DNA of 64,000 bases from Dehalococcoidia bacterium (GTDB taxonomy: Bacteria; Chloroflexota; Dehalococcoidia; UBA2979): positions 2,848,001 to 2,912,000 of the forward strand of contig OZ244720.1 of assembly GCA_965219085.1 (NCBI GenBank). The letters are read 5' to 3'. Numbering within the stretch: position 1 is the stretch's first letter; every line of letters starts with the position of its first letter. Below the pieces are notes generated by a model. It was not told the origin of the DNA and ran no database searches. It saw only the letters and a list, made by a program, of their open reading frames with translations. Positions 1-3,969 of the stretch are shown here, one piece after another. The translations under genes and the position numbers were made by a program.

Positions 1-590
1 TGGGGGACTCGGCGGTACCCGCCGTGCGGCTGCGTGCTGAGCGGCCGAACCACGTCTGGGCGCTGGACTTCCAGTTCGACCAGACCGCGGACGGGCGGGT
101 CCTGAAGCTGCTCAACATCGTCGACGAGCACACACGGGAGGCGCTGGCGGTGGTGGCCGCCAGGCGCATCAACGCCGACGCCACCGCCGCCACGCTCGAC
201 CGGATCGTCGCCTGGCGCGGAACGGCGCCGGGGTACATCCGCTGCGACAACGGGCCCGAGCTCACGGCCAACGCCTTGCGCGACTGGTGCCGGTTCAGCG
301 GCACCGGCAGCAGCTACATCGAGCCTGGCGCGCCGTGGGAGAACCCGTACGTGGAGTCGTTCAACGGCCGGCTGCGCGACGAGTTCCTGGCCGTCGAGCA
401 GTTCGACAGCCTGCTTGAGGCGCAGGTGCTGCTCGAGGACTGGCGGATCGAGTACAACACGAAGCGCCCGCATAGATGGCATGAGGGCCGGTCCCCTCCT
501 CACAGCGGATACTCGTCTCCGCCGGGAGCACGGCCTCGATGGGCTAGGTAGCGGCTCGGCAAGGAGCCTGAGAGAGGTAGGAGACCGGCC

Positions 591-1676
591 ATGCGGCAGG
601 ATATCGCAACGATGCGCATCGACGACAGGGATGGGGCCGCCGTCATCGTCGGCCTCGACGTGGGCGATCGTTACACGCACGTCCACGCGCTCGGCGCCGG
701 CGGAGAGGCGGTGCGCGAACGGCGCGTCCGCACCACGGCGGCGTCGCTGACTACAGCGCTGGCCAGCCTGCCTCCAGCGCGGGTCGTGCTCGAGGCGGGG
801 CCGCGCTCGCCGTGGCTAAGCCGCCTCGTGGCGGACCTCGGCCACGAGGCGGTCGTCGCCAACCCTCGCCAGGTGGCGCTGATCGCCCGCAGCCAGCGCA
901 AGACCGACCGGCTCGACGCCGCGTGGCTGGCGCGGCTGGGGCGCTTCGACCCGGAGCTGCTCGCCCCGATCCGCCACAGGAGCGAGCGAAGCCAGCACGA
1001 CCTCGCCGTGGTGCGCGCCCGCGACGCACTGGTGCGCACCAGGACGTTGCTCATCAACCACGTGCGTGGGGCCGTCAAGGCCTGCGGCGCCGCGCTGCCG
1101 TCGTGCACGGCCGAGGCCTTCCACCGCAAGATGGGGGACCACATCCCCGACGGGCTGCGCCCGGCGCTGCTGCCGCTGGTGGAAACGATCGGCGAGCTGA
1201 CCGCGCGCATCGCGGCAGCCGGCCGCGAGGTCGACGCGCTGTGCGAGGCTCACCCCGAGACCGCGGCGCTGCGCCAGGTCACCGGCGTGGGGCCGATCAC
1301 GGCGCTCACGTTCGTGCTGACGATCGAGGACCCCGGCCGCTTCCCGAAGAACCGGGAGGTGGGGGCCTACCTCGGGCTCGTGCCGCAGCAGCGGGAGTCT
1401 GGGGAGCGAGCGCCACAGCTCGGCATCAGCAAGAGCGGCGACGCGGGCCTGCGGCGGCTGCTCGTGCAGGCTGCGCACTACATCCTCGGCCCCTTCGGAC
1501 CCGATACCGACCTGCGCCGCTGGGGTGAGCGCTACGCCGCTACGGGGGCCGGCAACGCGAAGAAGCGCGCCGTCGTGGGCGTCGCGAGGCGGCTGGCGGT
1601 GCTGCTGCTCGCGCTGTGGAAGAGTGGCGAGGTCTACGAACCGCTACGTCACGCCGCAACCCGCGAGGCTGTGTAG
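591..1676 (+). CDS. IS110/IS1111-family DEDD transposase (bridge recombinase)
   Basis: RuvC-like motifs VGLDVG, LEAG and KTDRLDA; C-terminal GVGPITA and AYLGLVPQQRESG with the catalytic Ser; AG-rich RBS upstream. Confidence 0.95.
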   Translation: MRQDIATMRIDDRDGAAVIVGLDVGDRYTHVHALGAGGEAVRERRVRTTAASLTTALASLPPARVVLEAGPRSPWLSRLVADLGHEAVVANPRQVALIARSQRKTDRLDAAWLARLGRFDPELLAPIRHRSERSQHDLAVVRARDALVRTRTLLINHVRGAVKACGAALPSCTAEAFHRKMGDHIPDGLRPALLPLVETIGELTARIAAAGREVDALCEAHPETAALRQVTGVGPITALTFVLTIEDPGRFPKNREVGAYLGLVPQQRESGERAPQLGISKSGDAGLRRLLVQAAHYILGPFGPDTDLRRWGERYAATGAGNAKKRAVVGVARRLAVLLLALWKSGEVYEPLRHAATREAV

Positions 1677-2003
1677 GGGCGAGGCAGCGTAGCAGGCGGC
1701 GGGGAGCGGAGAGCAGGAAGGAAGAATCCGAGCGCGAACGAAGCCTTGCACGTGATGCCGAACACGGGCGACTGCGACAGGCTGCTTGTCCCACCGAGGA
1801 CGCCGCATAGCTGGCAGCGCCCCCTGGAAGCAGGATGTGCCTTCATGCACCGGACCCGACGCGCGGTCCATCGAGAGTGCGGATAGAAGCTCGGCACGGG
1901 CTCCGCCACCGGACATCACGAGTAGCTCGGCCCGGACCAGGAGAGGCGTCGTACCCGGAGGAGGCCGCCACGTCGGCCTTGCGGAAAGACCGTCCCTCAT
2001 AGA
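1677..2003 (+). ncRNA. Predicted bridge/seek RNA locus of the IS1111-type element
   Basis: CAGGCTGCT (1778-1786) is the reverse complement of the target right half AGCAGCCTG. CCGCATAG (1803-1810) equals the target left half plus core. They are separated by a GTCC/GGAC hairpin and closed by a GGGCG-CTGC/GCAG-CGCCC stem. RNA boundaries are inferred. Confidence 0.8.
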
Positions 2004-2738
2004 AGGCAGCGTAGCAGGCGGCGGGGAGCGGAGAGCAGGAAGGAAGAATCCGAGCGCGAACGAAGCCTTGCACGTGATGCCGAACACGGGCGACTGCGAC
2101 AGGCTGCTTGTCCCACCGAGGACGCCGCATAGCTGGCAGCGCCCCCTGGAAGCAGGATGTGCCTTCATGCACCGGACCCGACGCGCGGTCCATCGAGAGT
2201 GCGGATAGAAGCTCGGCACGGGCTCCGCCACCGGACATCACGAGTAGCTCGGCCCGGACCAGGAGAGGCGTCGTACCCGGAGGAGGCCGCCACGTCGGCC
2301 TTGCGGAAAGACCGTCCCTCATAGAAGAAGCTCGGCACGGGCTCCGCCACCGGACATCACGAGTAGCTCGGCCCGGACCAGGAGAGGCGTCGTACCCGGA
2401 GGAGGCCGCCACGTCGGCCTTGCGGAAAGACCGTCCCTCATAGAAGCAGGATGTGCCTTCATGCACCGGACCCGACGCGCGGTCCATCGAGAGTGCGGAT
2501 AGAAGCTCGGCACGGGCTCCGCCACCGGACATCACGAGTAGCTCGGCCCGGACCAGGAGAGGCGTCGTACCCGGAGGAGGCCGCCACGTCGGCCTTGCGG
2601 AAAGACCGTCCCTCATAGAAGAAGCTCGGCACGGGCTCCGCCACCGGACATCACGAGTAGCTCGGCCCGGACCAGGAGAGGCGTCGTACCCGGAGGAGGC
2701 CGCCACGTCGGCCTTGCGGAAAGACCGTCCCTCATAGA
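1682..2738 (+). repeat. Tandem array of five IS right ends: 1682-2003, 2004-2325 (322 bp), 2326-2444 (119 bp), 2445-2619 (175 bp), 2620-2738 (119 bp)
   Basis: Every unit ends GGAAAGACCGTCCCTCATAGA. The next unit starts at an internal AG of the non-coding region (equivalent to 1682, 1885, 1829, 1885). Confidence 0.95.
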
Positions 2739-2839
2739 AGCAGCCTGGGCTGGCTCGCCCCGGCTGCCTACGCCGAGCGCTGGGAGACTCAGCTACACGC
2801 TGGACTCTCATAAGCGGTGGACTCGCGAAGGGGGTCCGG

Positions 2840-3969
2840 TCACCCCGCGTAATCCGCGAGCCACTCAGCGGCGATGAATCCCAATGCATACGTCAGCCAG
2901 AAGTGGCTTCGGTCGAAGTCGTGCACTTCACCGGGAGTTCTGGTGAGTTGTTCGACGGCGAAGCTGGGATTGCGGGCTCTACGCCCGACCTCCAGATCGT
3001 ACACATATTGGGCGTAGTCGGCAGTGCCCTCGCTCATCCAATCGGGACCGAAGTACAACTCGTCCGTTTCCATGGCGAGGACGTTCTGGAGGACGTGAAA
3101 GTACTCGTGTGCTACTGCACTCGCGCTGCAGCCGGGGAACTGGAACTCGATGACATCGTGCGAAACCGTGCAGTAGAACGTGTTGCCGGCGTCGACGTCG
3201 ACCGTGTAGTCGGTGGTGTGTACGCCGAAGCGCATCGCGACCACGTCGGTGGCGCTCTCGAACAGCGCCCGGACCTCGTCGCGCTGCTCAGCCGTGATGT
3301 CGTCGGCGAAGACGAACGTTGGCCGCGCCGTCCCGCGTTCCCACCACCGTGCGTCTCTCGACAGTTCGAGCCGCAGCGCCTGCCCGCGGGCGAGCGTCGT
3401 GAGCCCGACGTCGTCCGCGTCCGCACCGTAGTGCACGTACCGTTGCGTCTCGGCCTCCCACCTCGACGCCTCCACGGGCTCGTCGCCAAAACGGGCGAGG
3501 GCATCCGCGACAGGCGTGCCGTCCGCGCCCGTCCAGCCCATGAGGTTCCACCCGGCGCGGAGGGAGATCACGACGCCCTCGCCGGAGACGAGGCGGGTCC
3601 ACTCGACGGTCGAGTCGCCGTCGAGAAGCAGCCACGGCCCCATCCCCCCGTGAGCGTCGGCAGGTCGCTGTACCGGCGTCGCAGGGCGTGCTGGTAGGCC
3701 TGCTCCTCGGCGTCCCACGCCGAGACCTGCCGCAGCGCCGGGATCGCGTCGAACAGCTCCGAGGTGGAGGTGCTCGGCCCGACCCAGCCGACCATGTTCC
3801 AGCCGGGATACAGCACGGCGGTGATCGTGTCCGCCTCGGATGTTCCCGCCGGGTCGGACGAGGCGACAGCGTGCGCGGGCGCCACTCCGACACCGAGCAC
3901 GAGGAGCGCGAGCGCCGCGAGGAGCGCGCGCCGGAGGTGTGCGGGCGGGAGCGGGCTCGATGCGGTCAT
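2840..3969 (-). pseudogene. Secreted zinc-metallopeptidase-like paralogue 4 (HEYFH motif), frameshifted near 3645 and truncated by the IS3 end
   Basis: Signal peptide and YPGWNMVGW domain in the 3568-3969 frame continue in the 2840-3718 frame with HEYFH...WMSEGTADY. The stop is supplied by the IS3 terminus right after WLADYAG. Confidence 0.75.

What the first reader, a model, noticed from the sequence alone, without database searches (positions are those of the whole stretch)
1765..1825. Readable guide loop: the element's non-coding RNA exactly encodes both halves of its insertion site
Seen: CAGGCTGCT (1778-1786) is the 9/9 reverse complement of AGCAGCCTG (2739-2747), and CCGCATAG (1803-1810) is an 8/8 match to 468-475. 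Both include the AG core and sit in an internal loop between a GTCC-caccga-GGAC hairpin and a GGGCG(A)CTGC/GCAGCGCCC stem. Established: IS110/IS1111 recombinases use bridge/seek RNAs, and IS1111 members encode them downstream of the transposase. Here the bottom-strand guide precedes the top-strand guide. Recombinase, ends, core and target are thus all defined, giving a candidate programmable recombinase with an AG core and about a 15-bp target.
Basis: partly seen in the sequence, partly recalled or inferred. Interest (0 to 1): 0.75.

Follow-up and report, generated by a model that had tools for sequence, protein, structure and literature searches.

The report
IS1111-type bridge RNA guide loop
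A jumping gene in this bacterial genome carries a small RNA gene whose two short loop sequences spell out both halves of the site it inserted into, as expected for this already known family of RNA-guided insertion sequences.

Summary
CAGGCTGCT (1778-1786) is the reverse complement of AGCAGCCTG (2739-2747), and CCGCATAG (1803-1810) equals 468-475. Only 20 of 2,000,000 mock genome sites gave both matches in that order.

The element is window 476-2003, an IS1111-type member of the IS110 family. It sits at an AG core inside an IS3-family transposase gene. The uninterrupted site occurs 10 more times in the genome.

The loop lies in a conserved RNA scaffold. That scaffold recurs downstream of the transposase in relatives from several phyla, with 19 of 33 pairs showing compensatory changes. 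Among 17 guide types from 40 loci, loops fit their own flanks and not others': 4.92 vs 2.01 of 7 on the left, 5.59 vs 2.91 of 7 on the right. Two loci (L002, L059) do not fit. A second loop matches the right end in 26 of 26 elements.

The guide order is the one already published for IS1111 seekRNAs, so this is a new member of a known kind. RNA expression and activity are untested.

The unexpected part is a 735-bp array of right-end segments (2004-2738). Every junction reads right end-AG-internal AG site.

The parts
3..475 (+). 5' part of the interrupted IS3-family transposase gene (left flank of the insertion)
   Evidence: Pfam rve 2.8e-18 and rve_3 6.4e-23. 10 full-length copies of this stretch at 92-95% identity elsewhere in the genome. 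The reading frame continues across the empty site (...RPHSSLGWLAPAAYAERW...).
468..475 (+). Left target half CCGCAT plus the AG core (474-475)
   Evidence: Identical to 1803-1810. The empty-site 40-mer is found 10 times, 7 exact and 3 with one mismatch.
476..2003 (+). IS1111-type insertion sequence, 1528 bp (ATGGCATGAGGG...CCCTCATAGA)
   Evidence: Borders set by the empty sites and by 10 paralogous copies at 85-89% identity.
481..493 (+). Left subterminal inverted repeat, 5 nt in from the end
   Evidence: 12 of 13 complementary to 1988-2000.
591..1676 (+). Transposase/recombinase gene, 361 aa
   Evidence: PF01548 1.3e-18 and PF02371 1.8e-20. NCBIfam NF033542 'IS110 family RNA-guided transposase', 233.4 bits against a cut-off of 140. 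GLVPQQRESG fits the GL-P----S(t)G motif (translation; motif). Distant sequence match to the ISCro4 and IS621 transposase structures.
1766..1822 (+). Target-binding loop module of the bridge/seekRNA gene: outer stem 1766-1775 / 1814-1822 and hairpin 1788-1801
   Evidence: The stems are invariant in 15 close relatives and show compensatory changes in distant ones. Covariance-model hit of 149 bits.
1776..1787 (+). 5' guide GACAGGCTGCTT, complementary to the top strand of the right target half (AG+CAGCCTG) plus the last A of the right end
   Evidence: 7 of 7 for the window. 9 of 10 of these columns (alignment columns 13-22) carry 3 or more different bases among relatives.
1802..1813 (+). 3' guide GCCGCATAGCTG, same sequence as the top strand of the left target half (so it pairs with the bottom strand). 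AG sits at a fixed place, followed by 3 nt that partly match the first bases of the left end.
1823..1834 (+). Small linker hairpin CCTG-GAAG-CAGG
   Evidence: Helix 4 (3 of 4 pairs with compensatory change).
1837..1897 (+). Donor-binding loop module: outer stem 1837-1841 / 1893-1897, helix 1846-1851 / 1875-1881, hairpin 1852-1869, 5' loop TTCA 1842-1845, 3' loop GATAGAAGCTC 1882-1892
   Evidence: The 3' loop carries ATAGA+AG, which is the right end plus core. ATAGA or ATGGA matched the element's own right end in 26 of 26 rows. Helices 5-7 show 10 pairs with compensatory change.
1988..2000 (+). Right subterminal inverted repeat, 3 nt in from the end
2004..2740 (+). Tandem array of right-end segments. 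Four units, each an AG followed by an exact copy of a 3' part of the element: 1684-2003, 1887-2003, 1831-2003, 1887-2003. A final AG follows.
   Evidence: All four copies are 100% identical to their source, and each source is preceded by AG.
2088..2144 (+). Second, identical copy of the target-binding loop, inside the array
2739..2747 (+). AG core plus right target half CAGCCTG
2741..2813 (+). 3' remainder of the interrupted IS3-family transposase gene, up to its stop codon

Best explanation
Window 476-2003 is an IS1111-type insertion sequence of the IS110 family. Its 327-nt region downstream of the transposase gene encodes a bridge RNA (seekRNA) with two modules.

In the target-binding module (1766-1822), the 5' loop strand pairs with the top strand of the right half of the target (AG+CAGCCTG). 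The 3' loop strand pairs with the bottom strand of the left half (CCGCAT+AG). Together they specify the 15-bp site CCGCATAGCAGCCTG, with exchange at the AG core.

In the donor-binding module (1837-1897), the 3' loop strand matches the right end plus core (ATAGA+AG). The 5' strand matches the start of the left end only weakly.

The DEDD/Ser recombinase would use this RNA to join the circularised element (right end-AG-left end) to the target.

Shown here: the sequence matches, the borders, the family membership of the protein, the conserved and covarying RNA structure, and guide-flank covariation across relatives. Inferred from the published family mechanism: that the region is transcribed, that the RNA is bound by the protein, and that this particular copy is active.
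For: - Matches and chance: (20 of 2,000,000 mock sites).
- Borders and core: the 40-nt empty site occurs 10 times in the genome, and the exact 15-mer occurs 10 times.
- Protein: PF01548 and PF02371; NF033542 at 233 bits against a cut-off of 140.
- IS1111 traits: 12/13 subterminal inverted repeats, the long non-coding region downstream of the transposase gene, and the GL-P----SG motif.
- Same genome: 12 copies of the loop module in four versions (window type x2, B x4, C x1, D x5) on identical stems. Each version sits in a different target.
- 40 loci, 30 unique insertions, 17 guide types. Own-flank match on the left was 4.92 of 7 (n=25) against 2.01 for other elements' flanks (n=336). On the right it was 5.59 of 7 (n=22) against 2.91 (n=288).
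- Guide columns are hypervariable (majority-base share 0.53-0.54) against 0.93 for the other 121 columns.
- On 28 distinct sequences, 95.1% of cells pair and 19 of 33 pairs show compensatory change. 0 of 500 shuffles reach this, and slid controls give at most 8 pairs.
- In those distant elements the loops again read out their own flanks (for example L060, L062 and L065 have 9-10 nt each side).
- The donor 3' loop equals the element's own right end in 26 of 26 rows.
- Published mechanism for the family.
Against: - No direct evidence of an RNA. Rfam has no matching family (0 matches). The promoter and terminator scans found nothing. The single-sequence fold is no better than shuffles (z +1.06 and +0.56).
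- Only assembled contigs could be laid. The two RNA-library runs covered relatives at 90-95% identity, which does not show transcription of this copy.
- No right end-AG-left end junction was found in the genome or in any fetched locus (0).
- Two of 30 unique insertions do not fit their guides: L002 (left 4/7, right 1/7; B-type guides in a D-type target) and L059 (2/7, 1/7).
- The register of the 5' guide relative to the core shifts by one base between guide types, and the A of the core is unpaired in some.
- The match of the donor 5' strand to the left end is weak: 3.00 against 2.29 of 4.
- The alignment used for one search was fitted to the model's structure, which favours that structure.
- Only one window-type copy exists although 10 sites are free.
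Confidence: 0.88

Rival explanations
1. The guide segments act as DNA, not RNA. The element's own single-stranded DNA pairs with the target, as in transposon-directed target choice of IS200/IS605 elements.
For: Nothing here shows a transcript. Base pairing as such cannot tell DNA from RNA.
Against: The protein belongs to the family for which RNA guidance was shown experimentally. The conserved structure holds strand-specific G-U pairs, which would be A-C on the other strand; one example is a U-G pair kept in 27 of 28 sequences. The module always lies downstream of the transposase gene and on its strand.
Confidence: 0.04
2. The matches are chance, or a passive copy of target sequence picked up by the element, and have no role in targeting.
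For: Short matches occur often in G+C-rich DNA. 8,855 and 30,060 of 2,000,000 mock sites matched one side alone.
Against: Both matches, in order and within 40 nt, occurred in 20 of 2,000,000 mock sites. The same two loop positions track the flanks in 17 guide types and in distant phyla.
Confidence: 0.01
3. About the array at 2004-2738 only: it is an assembly artefact or an ordinary slippage / unequal-crossover duplication, not a product of the recombinase.
For: All units are 100% identical, as expected of very recent events or of mis-assembly. The junction microhomology is only 2 nt. For L004 and L006 the internal sites do not resemble the target (right-half scores 1/7 and 3/7). I could not lay reads on the array itself.
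Against: All 8 junctions in 4 loci have the form exact right end-AG-sequence that follows an internal AG, and each array ends at the cognate right flank. The loci are the window, L004 and L006 in this genome and L050 in another assembly. At 1887 a 7-nt in-register homology (ATAGAAG) was available but was not used; the join is at the first AG. A short-read contig of run X1 carries the L006-type junction (table 5c), although that run may be the source sample. Tandem cargo repeats were seen as by-products of an IS110 element in 3 of 96 colonies.
Confidence: 0.3

Closest known systems
seekRNAs of IS1111-family elements ISEc11, ISPa11, ISKpn4 and ISPst6 (Siddiquee et al. 2024, PMC11187229; outline and sections 6, 9, 13 read)
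   Same: DEDD transposase with the GL-P----S(t)G motif, subterminal inverted repeats, and the non-coding region downstream of the transposase gene. [quoted passage not shown]
   Different: The host is a Chloroflexota genome (closest relatives are Dehalococcoidia/Tepidiformaceae assemblies). The core is AG and the targets are other insertion sequences. I could not compare sequences with the ISfinder entries, and supplements are closed, so identity with a catalogued IS cannot be excluded.
IS621 bridge RNA (Durrant et al. 2024, PMC11208160; Hiraizumi et al. 2024, PMC11208158; passages read)
   Same: Two internal-loop modules, for target and donor, each a stem, guide, stem-loop and guide. Exchange occurs at a 2-nt core. 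Bases next to a guide match the other partner after exchange ('handshake'). Here the 3' guide continues with AT or TT, which equals the first two bases of the left end in 9 of 9 distant elements where the left end was found.
   Different: In IS621 the RNA lies in the left end, upstream of the gene. Its 5' guide pairs with the bottom strand of the left half and its 3' guide with the top strand of the right half, the reverse order. Its core is CT. The protein matches only distantly (E 3.1e-8 over the C-terminal domain).
Predicted IS1111 bridge RNAs in the right end (Durrant et al. 2024, section 'Diverse IS110s encode bridge RNAs')
   Same: A bridge RNA was predicted in 93.0% of IS1111 elements, located in the right end, with target and donor loops.
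   Different: No Rfam family matched this RNA. Their model files and Supplementary Table 5 were not available to me.
Partial circles of ISPpu9 (PMC12288879, abstract read) and tandem cargo repeats of CazIS110-1 (10.1101/2025.10.25.684509, passages read); half-match recombination of IS621 (10.64898/2026.08.31.748434, abstract read)
   Same: IS110-family recombinases make products other than the whole element: circles of sub-modules, tandem repeats, and events in which only half of the RNA's guides are matched.
   Different: Here the products are fixed in natural genomes as arrays of 3' segments joined at internal AG sites. None of those papers, as far as I read them, describes that.

Membership tests
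IS110 family, IS1111 group | N-terminal DEDD (RuvC-like) domain and C-terminal Transposase_20 domain | tested here: met
   PF01548 1.3e-18 and PF02371 1.8e-20. NF033542 at 233.4 bits against a cut-off of 140.
IS110 family, IS1111 group | C-terminal GL-P----S(t)G motif (Siddiquee 2024) | tested here: met
   GLVPQQRESG in the translation of 591-1676.
IS110 family, IS1111 group | Subterminal inverted repeats of 7-17 bp | tested here: met
   481-493 against 1988-2000, 12 of 13 complementary, 5 and 3 nt in from the ends.
IS110 family, IS1111 group | The longer non-coding region lies downstream of the transposase gene | tested here: met
   115 nt upstream (476-590) against 327 nt downstream (1677-2003).
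IS110 family, IS1111 group | Site-specific insertion at a shared core dinucleotide, without other duplication | tested here: met
   Left flank plus one AG plus right flank equals the 10 uninterrupted sites. All paralogues are flanked AG...AG.
IS110 family, IS1111 group | Circular intermediate with a right end-core-left end junction | tested here: inconclusive
   0 junctions in the genome and in the fetched loci. Only contigs, not raw reads, could be laid.
Bridge RNA / seekRNA | Two guide segments in one internal loop, complementary to opposite strands of the two target halves | tested here: met
Bridge RNA / seekRNA | Guides covary with the target among relatives while the scaffold is kept | tested here: met
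   Exceptions: L002 and L059.
Bridge RNA / seekRNA | Conserved secondary structure supported by compensatory changes | tested here: met
   19 of 33 pairs, 95.1% paired, 0 of 500 shuffles. Within the close clade only 2 of 33.
Bridge RNA / seekRNA | Donor-binding loop complementary to both element ends | tested here: inconclusive
   Right-end side: 26 of 26 rows. Left-end side: 3.00 against 2.29 of 4.
Bridge RNA / seekRNA | Transcribed, bound by the transposase and required for transposition | not testable with these tools
   No raw RNA reads of this organism were available.

The most novel reading that the evidence does not exclude
The arrays of right-end segments record half-matched bridge recombination in nature. 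They occur in the window at 2004-2738 and in L004, L006 and L050. In this reading the right end-AG junction of an inserted copy acts as a half donor and recombines with target-like internal AG sites on a sister copy. That duplicates the 3' part, and in the window it duplicates the whole RNA gene. In the same clade, guides have been re-aimed at other insertion sequences. In related genomes a second, distant IS110-family element sits exactly at the AG of this element's donor-binding loop. Together this would be an RNA-guided conflict between transposons that can be read directly from their guide loops.
Probability: 0.35. Interest if true: 0.6.

Novelty: new member of a known kind. Interest (0 to 1): 0.4.

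Why it matters
The finding adds a fully delimited IS1111-type system from a poorly studied phylum: protein, ends, AG core, 15-bp target, target loop and donor loop. It also supplies a natural reprogramming series of 17 guide pairs on an almost invariant scaffold, four of them in one genome. That series gives ready-made loop swaps for testing the rules of IS1111-type guides, which are less studied than those of IS621. The questions include the register of the guide relative to the core, whether the first core base must pair, and the bases that match the other partner after exchange. If the right-end arrays are recombinase products, they give natural examples of off-target or half-site events, which matter for the fidelity of bridge recombinases as tools.

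Tried and rejected
- Rfam found no family over window 1-3300 at E up to 1.
- Single-sequence folds of 1677-2005 and 1740-1915 were no more stable than shuffles. They say nothing for a G+C-rich region.
- The promoter and terminator scan of 400-2100 found 0 sites. The scan does not cover this phylum's signals.
- Sequencing runs: only Logan contigs were on offer. No run held more than half of the sampled words. The RNA-library contigs (X21, X22) lie on relatives at 90-95% identity. I draw no conclusion on expression, habitat or copy number from them. Parts without cover mean nothing.
- I first read CCTTCATGC (1840-1848) as a left-end guide pairing with GCATGA. I rejected this because TGCACC (1846-1851) pairs with GAGTGCG (1875-1881) in a helix that shows compensatory changes in distant relatives, and because the left-end variants do not covary with it.
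- Guide complementarity explains only part of the array junction sites. The window's sites score 6, 5 and 4 of 7 on the right half and one L050 site scores 5 of 7, but L004 scores 1, L006 scores 3 and the other L050 site scores 3.
- L002 is 100% identical to the B-type copy L004 over most of its length but only 73-90% over the first 300 alignment columns. Whether it is a recombinant or an off-target insertion stays open.
- One literature search for right-end tandem arrays found no description. That is one search, not proof of absence.
- Automatic end-calling made errors that I left in the counts. For the window's row the 'right flank' is an internal array junction, the right end called for L047 is false, and in L066 and L076 the core was placed 2 nt too far in. 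3 of 29 model matches were dropped before that count: the truncated L040:1-82 and the two further matches inside the window's array.
- The count includes those rows.

Full report
**The observation.** Reading window 1-3300 confirms both matches at the stated coordinates.
- CAGGCTGCT at 1778-1786 is the exact reverse complement of AGCAGCCTG at 2739-2747.
- CCGCATAG at 1803-1810 is identical to 468-475.
- The two segments lie on the two sides of an internal loop. The loop is closed below by GGGCG(A)CTGC (1766-1775) paired with GCAGCGCCC (1814-1822) and above by the hairpin GTCC-CACCGA-GGAC (1788-1801).

To measure chance I took 2,000,000 mock empty sites from the same genome. I asked whether the 327-nt non-coding region held the complement of the right 9-mer and the left 8-mer. 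8,855 and 30,060 sites matched one side, 140 matched both, and 20 matched both in the observed order within 40 nt.

**What the element is.**
- The ORF at 591-1676 (361 aa) carries PF01548 (DEDD_Tnp_IS110) and PF02371 (Transposase_20).
- It passes NCBIfam NF033542, 'IS110 family RNA-guided transposase', with 233.4 bits against a cut-off of 140.
- It matches the solved ISCro4 and IS621 transposases only distantly (E 6.5e-9 and 3.1e-8).
- Upstream, 3-551 is the integrase-core part of an IS3-family transposase (rve, rve_3).
- Joining the left flank, one AG and the sequence after 2740 gives a 40-mer that occurs 10 more times in this 3.3-Mb genome, 7 exact and 3 with one mismatch. Across it the IS3-like frame reads on as ...RPHSSLGWLAPAAYAERW... 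to a stop at 2811-2813.
- This fixes the element as 476-2003 (ATGGCATGAGGG...CCCTCATAGA), flanked by AG on both sides, with no other duplication.
- The ends carry subterminal inverted repeats (481-493 against 1988-2000, 12 of 13).
- The long non-coding region lies downstream of the gene.
- The protein holds GLVPQQRESG, which fits the GL-P----S(t)G motif that Siddiquee et al. give for IS1111 transposases.

All tested defining features of the IS1111 group are met. A circle junction was not found (0 in the genome and fetched loci), and raw reads were not available.

The genome holds 10 further copies at 85-89% identity. A scan for the conserved stems finds 12 copies of the loop module in four versions.

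| Type | Copies | 5' loop | 3' loop | Flanks | Target |
|---|---|---|---|---|---|
| Window | 2 | GACAGGCTGCTT | GCCGCATAGCTG | CCGCAT-AG ... AG-CAGCCTG | IS3-like rve gene |
| B | 4 | GAGCACCCACTT | GCGGCAGAGATA | GGGCAG-AG ... AG-TGGGTG | 3' end of a DDE_Tnp_1_4 transposase gene |
| C | 1 | GGCCGAGCTGCT | GTCCACCAGCTG | CCCACC-AG ... AG-CAGCTCG | just upstream of another IS110-family transposase gene |
| D | 5 | GAGGCGGTAGCG | GTTCAAGAGTTG | CTCAAG-AG ... AG-CTACCGCC | a DUF772 (IS5-like) transposase gene |

The stems and the hairpin are the same in all. Each loop reads out its own flanks. All four targets are other insertion sequences. Exact free sites remain for the window type (10) and the D type (7).

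**Relatives in other genomes.** A scan of one genome per species returned 49 loci, mostly from Dehalococcoidia/Tepidiformaceae assemblies, with distant ones from other phyla. I examined 40 loci: the window, 10 paralogues and 29 relatives. One (L061) failed my pattern, although the covariance model later found its module. This gave 30 unique insertions with 17 guide types.
- The seven bases before the core in the 3' loop matched the element's own left flank at 4.92 of 7 on average (n=25). They matched the flanks of other guide types at 2.01 (n=336; 9 of 336 reach 5 or more).
- The 5' loop matched its own right flank at 5.59 of 7 (n=22) against 2.91 (n=288; 25 reach 5 or more). Three registers were allowed in both cases.
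- The rows are not all independent, because some flanks are copies of one repeat.
- Two insertions do not fit. L002 has B-type guides in a D-type target (4/7 and 1/7). L059 scores 2/7 and 1/7.
- L002 is identical to the B-type copy over most of its length but diverged over the first 300 alignment columns. It may be a recombinant; this is open.
- In an alignment of 15 guide types, the guide columns have a majority-base share of 0.53-0.54 and the other 121 columns 0.93.

**The RNA structure.**
- Within the close clade the stems hardly vary, so they give little covariation (2 of 33 pairs).
[quoted passage not shown] Their proteins are 42-55% identical to the window's. E-values run from 2.3e-9 to 3.7e-5.
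- On the 28 distinct sequences, 95.1% of cells pair and 19 of 33 pairs show changes on both sides. No shuffle of 500 reaches this, and sliding the partners by 1-3 columns gives at most 8 such pairs and 28-40% pairing. This alignment was fitted to the model, which favours the structure, and it includes one spurious row from the window's array.
- The structure has seven helices: the outer stem and hairpin of the target module, a small linker hairpin, and three helices of a second module at 1837-1897.
- Single-sequence folding is uninformative here, and Rfam has no matching family.

**The second module binds the donor.**
- Its 3' loop (1882-1892, GATAGAAGCTC) contains ATAGA+AG, the last bases of the right end plus the core.
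- Relatives whose right end reads ...CATGGA carry ATGGAAG in this loop. The loop agreed with the element's own right end in 26 of 26 rows (only one position varies).
- The strand on the 5' side (GCC-TTCA) is complementary to bases 2-5 of the left end only in part: 3.00 of 4 for own ends against 2.29 for others. The left-end side is therefore not settled.
- In the target module the three bases after AG in the 3' guide tend to match the first bases of the left end. They read AT or TT in the distant elements, equal to their left ends in 9 of 9 where the left end was found.
- The last base of the 5' guide often pairs with the last A of the right end. In the window this gives 10 contiguous matches to the right junction.
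- This resembles the handshake guides described for IS621.
- The register of the 5' guide relative to the core differs by one base between guide types. The A of the core is mismatched in the D type, L058 and L066.

**Comparison with what is known.**
- Siddiquee et al. (2024) showed that IS1111-family elements encode a seekRNA downstream of the transposase gene. [quoted passage not shown] The order is the reverse in IS110-type elements.
- Durrant et al. (2024) predicted bridge RNAs in the right end of 93.0% of IS1111 elements.
- In IS621 the 5' guide pairs with the bottom strand of the left half and the 3' guide with the top strand of the right half.
The finding is a new, well delimited member of a known kind.
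- Transcription, protein binding and activity of this copy are inferred, not shown.

**The unexpected part.**
- Behind the first right end the window holds four further right-end segments (2004-2738). Each is an AG followed by an exact copy of 1684-2003, 1887-2003, 1831-2003 and 1887-2003. Then come AG and the true right flank.
- Each source position is itself preceded by AG. The first unit duplicates the whole RNA gene (second loop at 2088-2144).
- Smaller arrays of the same form occur in L004 (59 nt) and L006 (76 nt) of this genome, and in L050 (59 and 64 nt) of another assembly. That makes 4 of 30 unique insertions.
- At 1887 a 7-nt in-register homology with the right end (ATAGAAG) was available but was not used. 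The join is at the first AG, whose left side (GCGGAT-AG) resembles the window's left target (CCGCAT-AG).
- Two of the window's three internal sites rank 1st and 3rd of 94 AG sites for fit to the right-half guide. The sites of L004 and L006 do not fit.
- I read the arrays as products of recombination between a right end-AG junction and internal AG sites of a sister copy, at about 0.5-0.6 likelihood.
- This is in line with the tandem cargo repeats (3 of 96 colonies) reported for an IS110 element, with partial circles of ISPpu9 and with half-match recombination of IS621 (abstract only).
- An assembly artefact or slippage is not excluded.

**Verdict.** This is a new member of a known kind, of moderate interest. 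The guide series and the right-end arrays are the parts worth following up.

Noticed in passing
window 2004-2740: Tandem array of four right-end segments. Each is joined as right end-AG-(sequence following an internal AG at 1682-1683, 1885-1886 or 1829-1830), and all are 100% identical to their source. Similar arrays occur in L004, L006 and L050.
   Followed up: yes
L061 3797-5083; also L035, L045, L070: In four loci of related genomes, a second and only distantly related IS110-family element is inserted in the opposite orientation. It carries a 362-aa ORF with PF01548 and PF02371 that is 26% identical to the window's protein. It sits exactly at the AG of the donor-binding loop (GCGGAT-AG | AAGCTYGG), flanked by AG on both sides. 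So one insertion sequence appears aimed at another's bridge RNA gene. It is not present in the window's genome (best match 34% identity).
   Followed up: partly
G000 copies L010 and L011 (genome 1971386-1972908, 1857515-1859037): Two D-type copies carry an insertion of about 910 bp inside their right end (between ...GCAGAAAG and ACCGTCCCTCATAGA). L011 also has a different right flank. The inserted DNA was not identified.
   Followed up: no
G000 copy L005 (genome 1333208-1334569): A B-type copy is truncated after the target-binding loop. The deletion runs into the flank about 80 bp beyond the insertion site, at a 5-nt microhomology (GTGCC).
   Followed up: no
G000 copy L002 (genome 340399-341911): A copy with B-type guides sits in a D-type target. 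It has a 1-nt insertion in its left end and a diverged first 300 alignment columns. It may be a recombinant between elements or an off-target insertion.
   Followed up: partly
right ends of distant homologues L062, L064, L065, L067, L073, L076, L077, L079: A TTGAC(A/T/C) box lies about 24 nt before the right end in these distant elements. In the window the same place reads TTGCGG (1979-1984). It could be the -35 half of a promoter completed across the circle junction, as described for other IS110-family elements. This was not tested.
   Followed up: no
whole genome G000: The genome is very rich in insertion sequences that sit inside one another. It holds 11 IS3-like copies, several IS110-family types, and IS5-like, IS4-like and IS256-like genes around the copies studied.
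   Followed up: no
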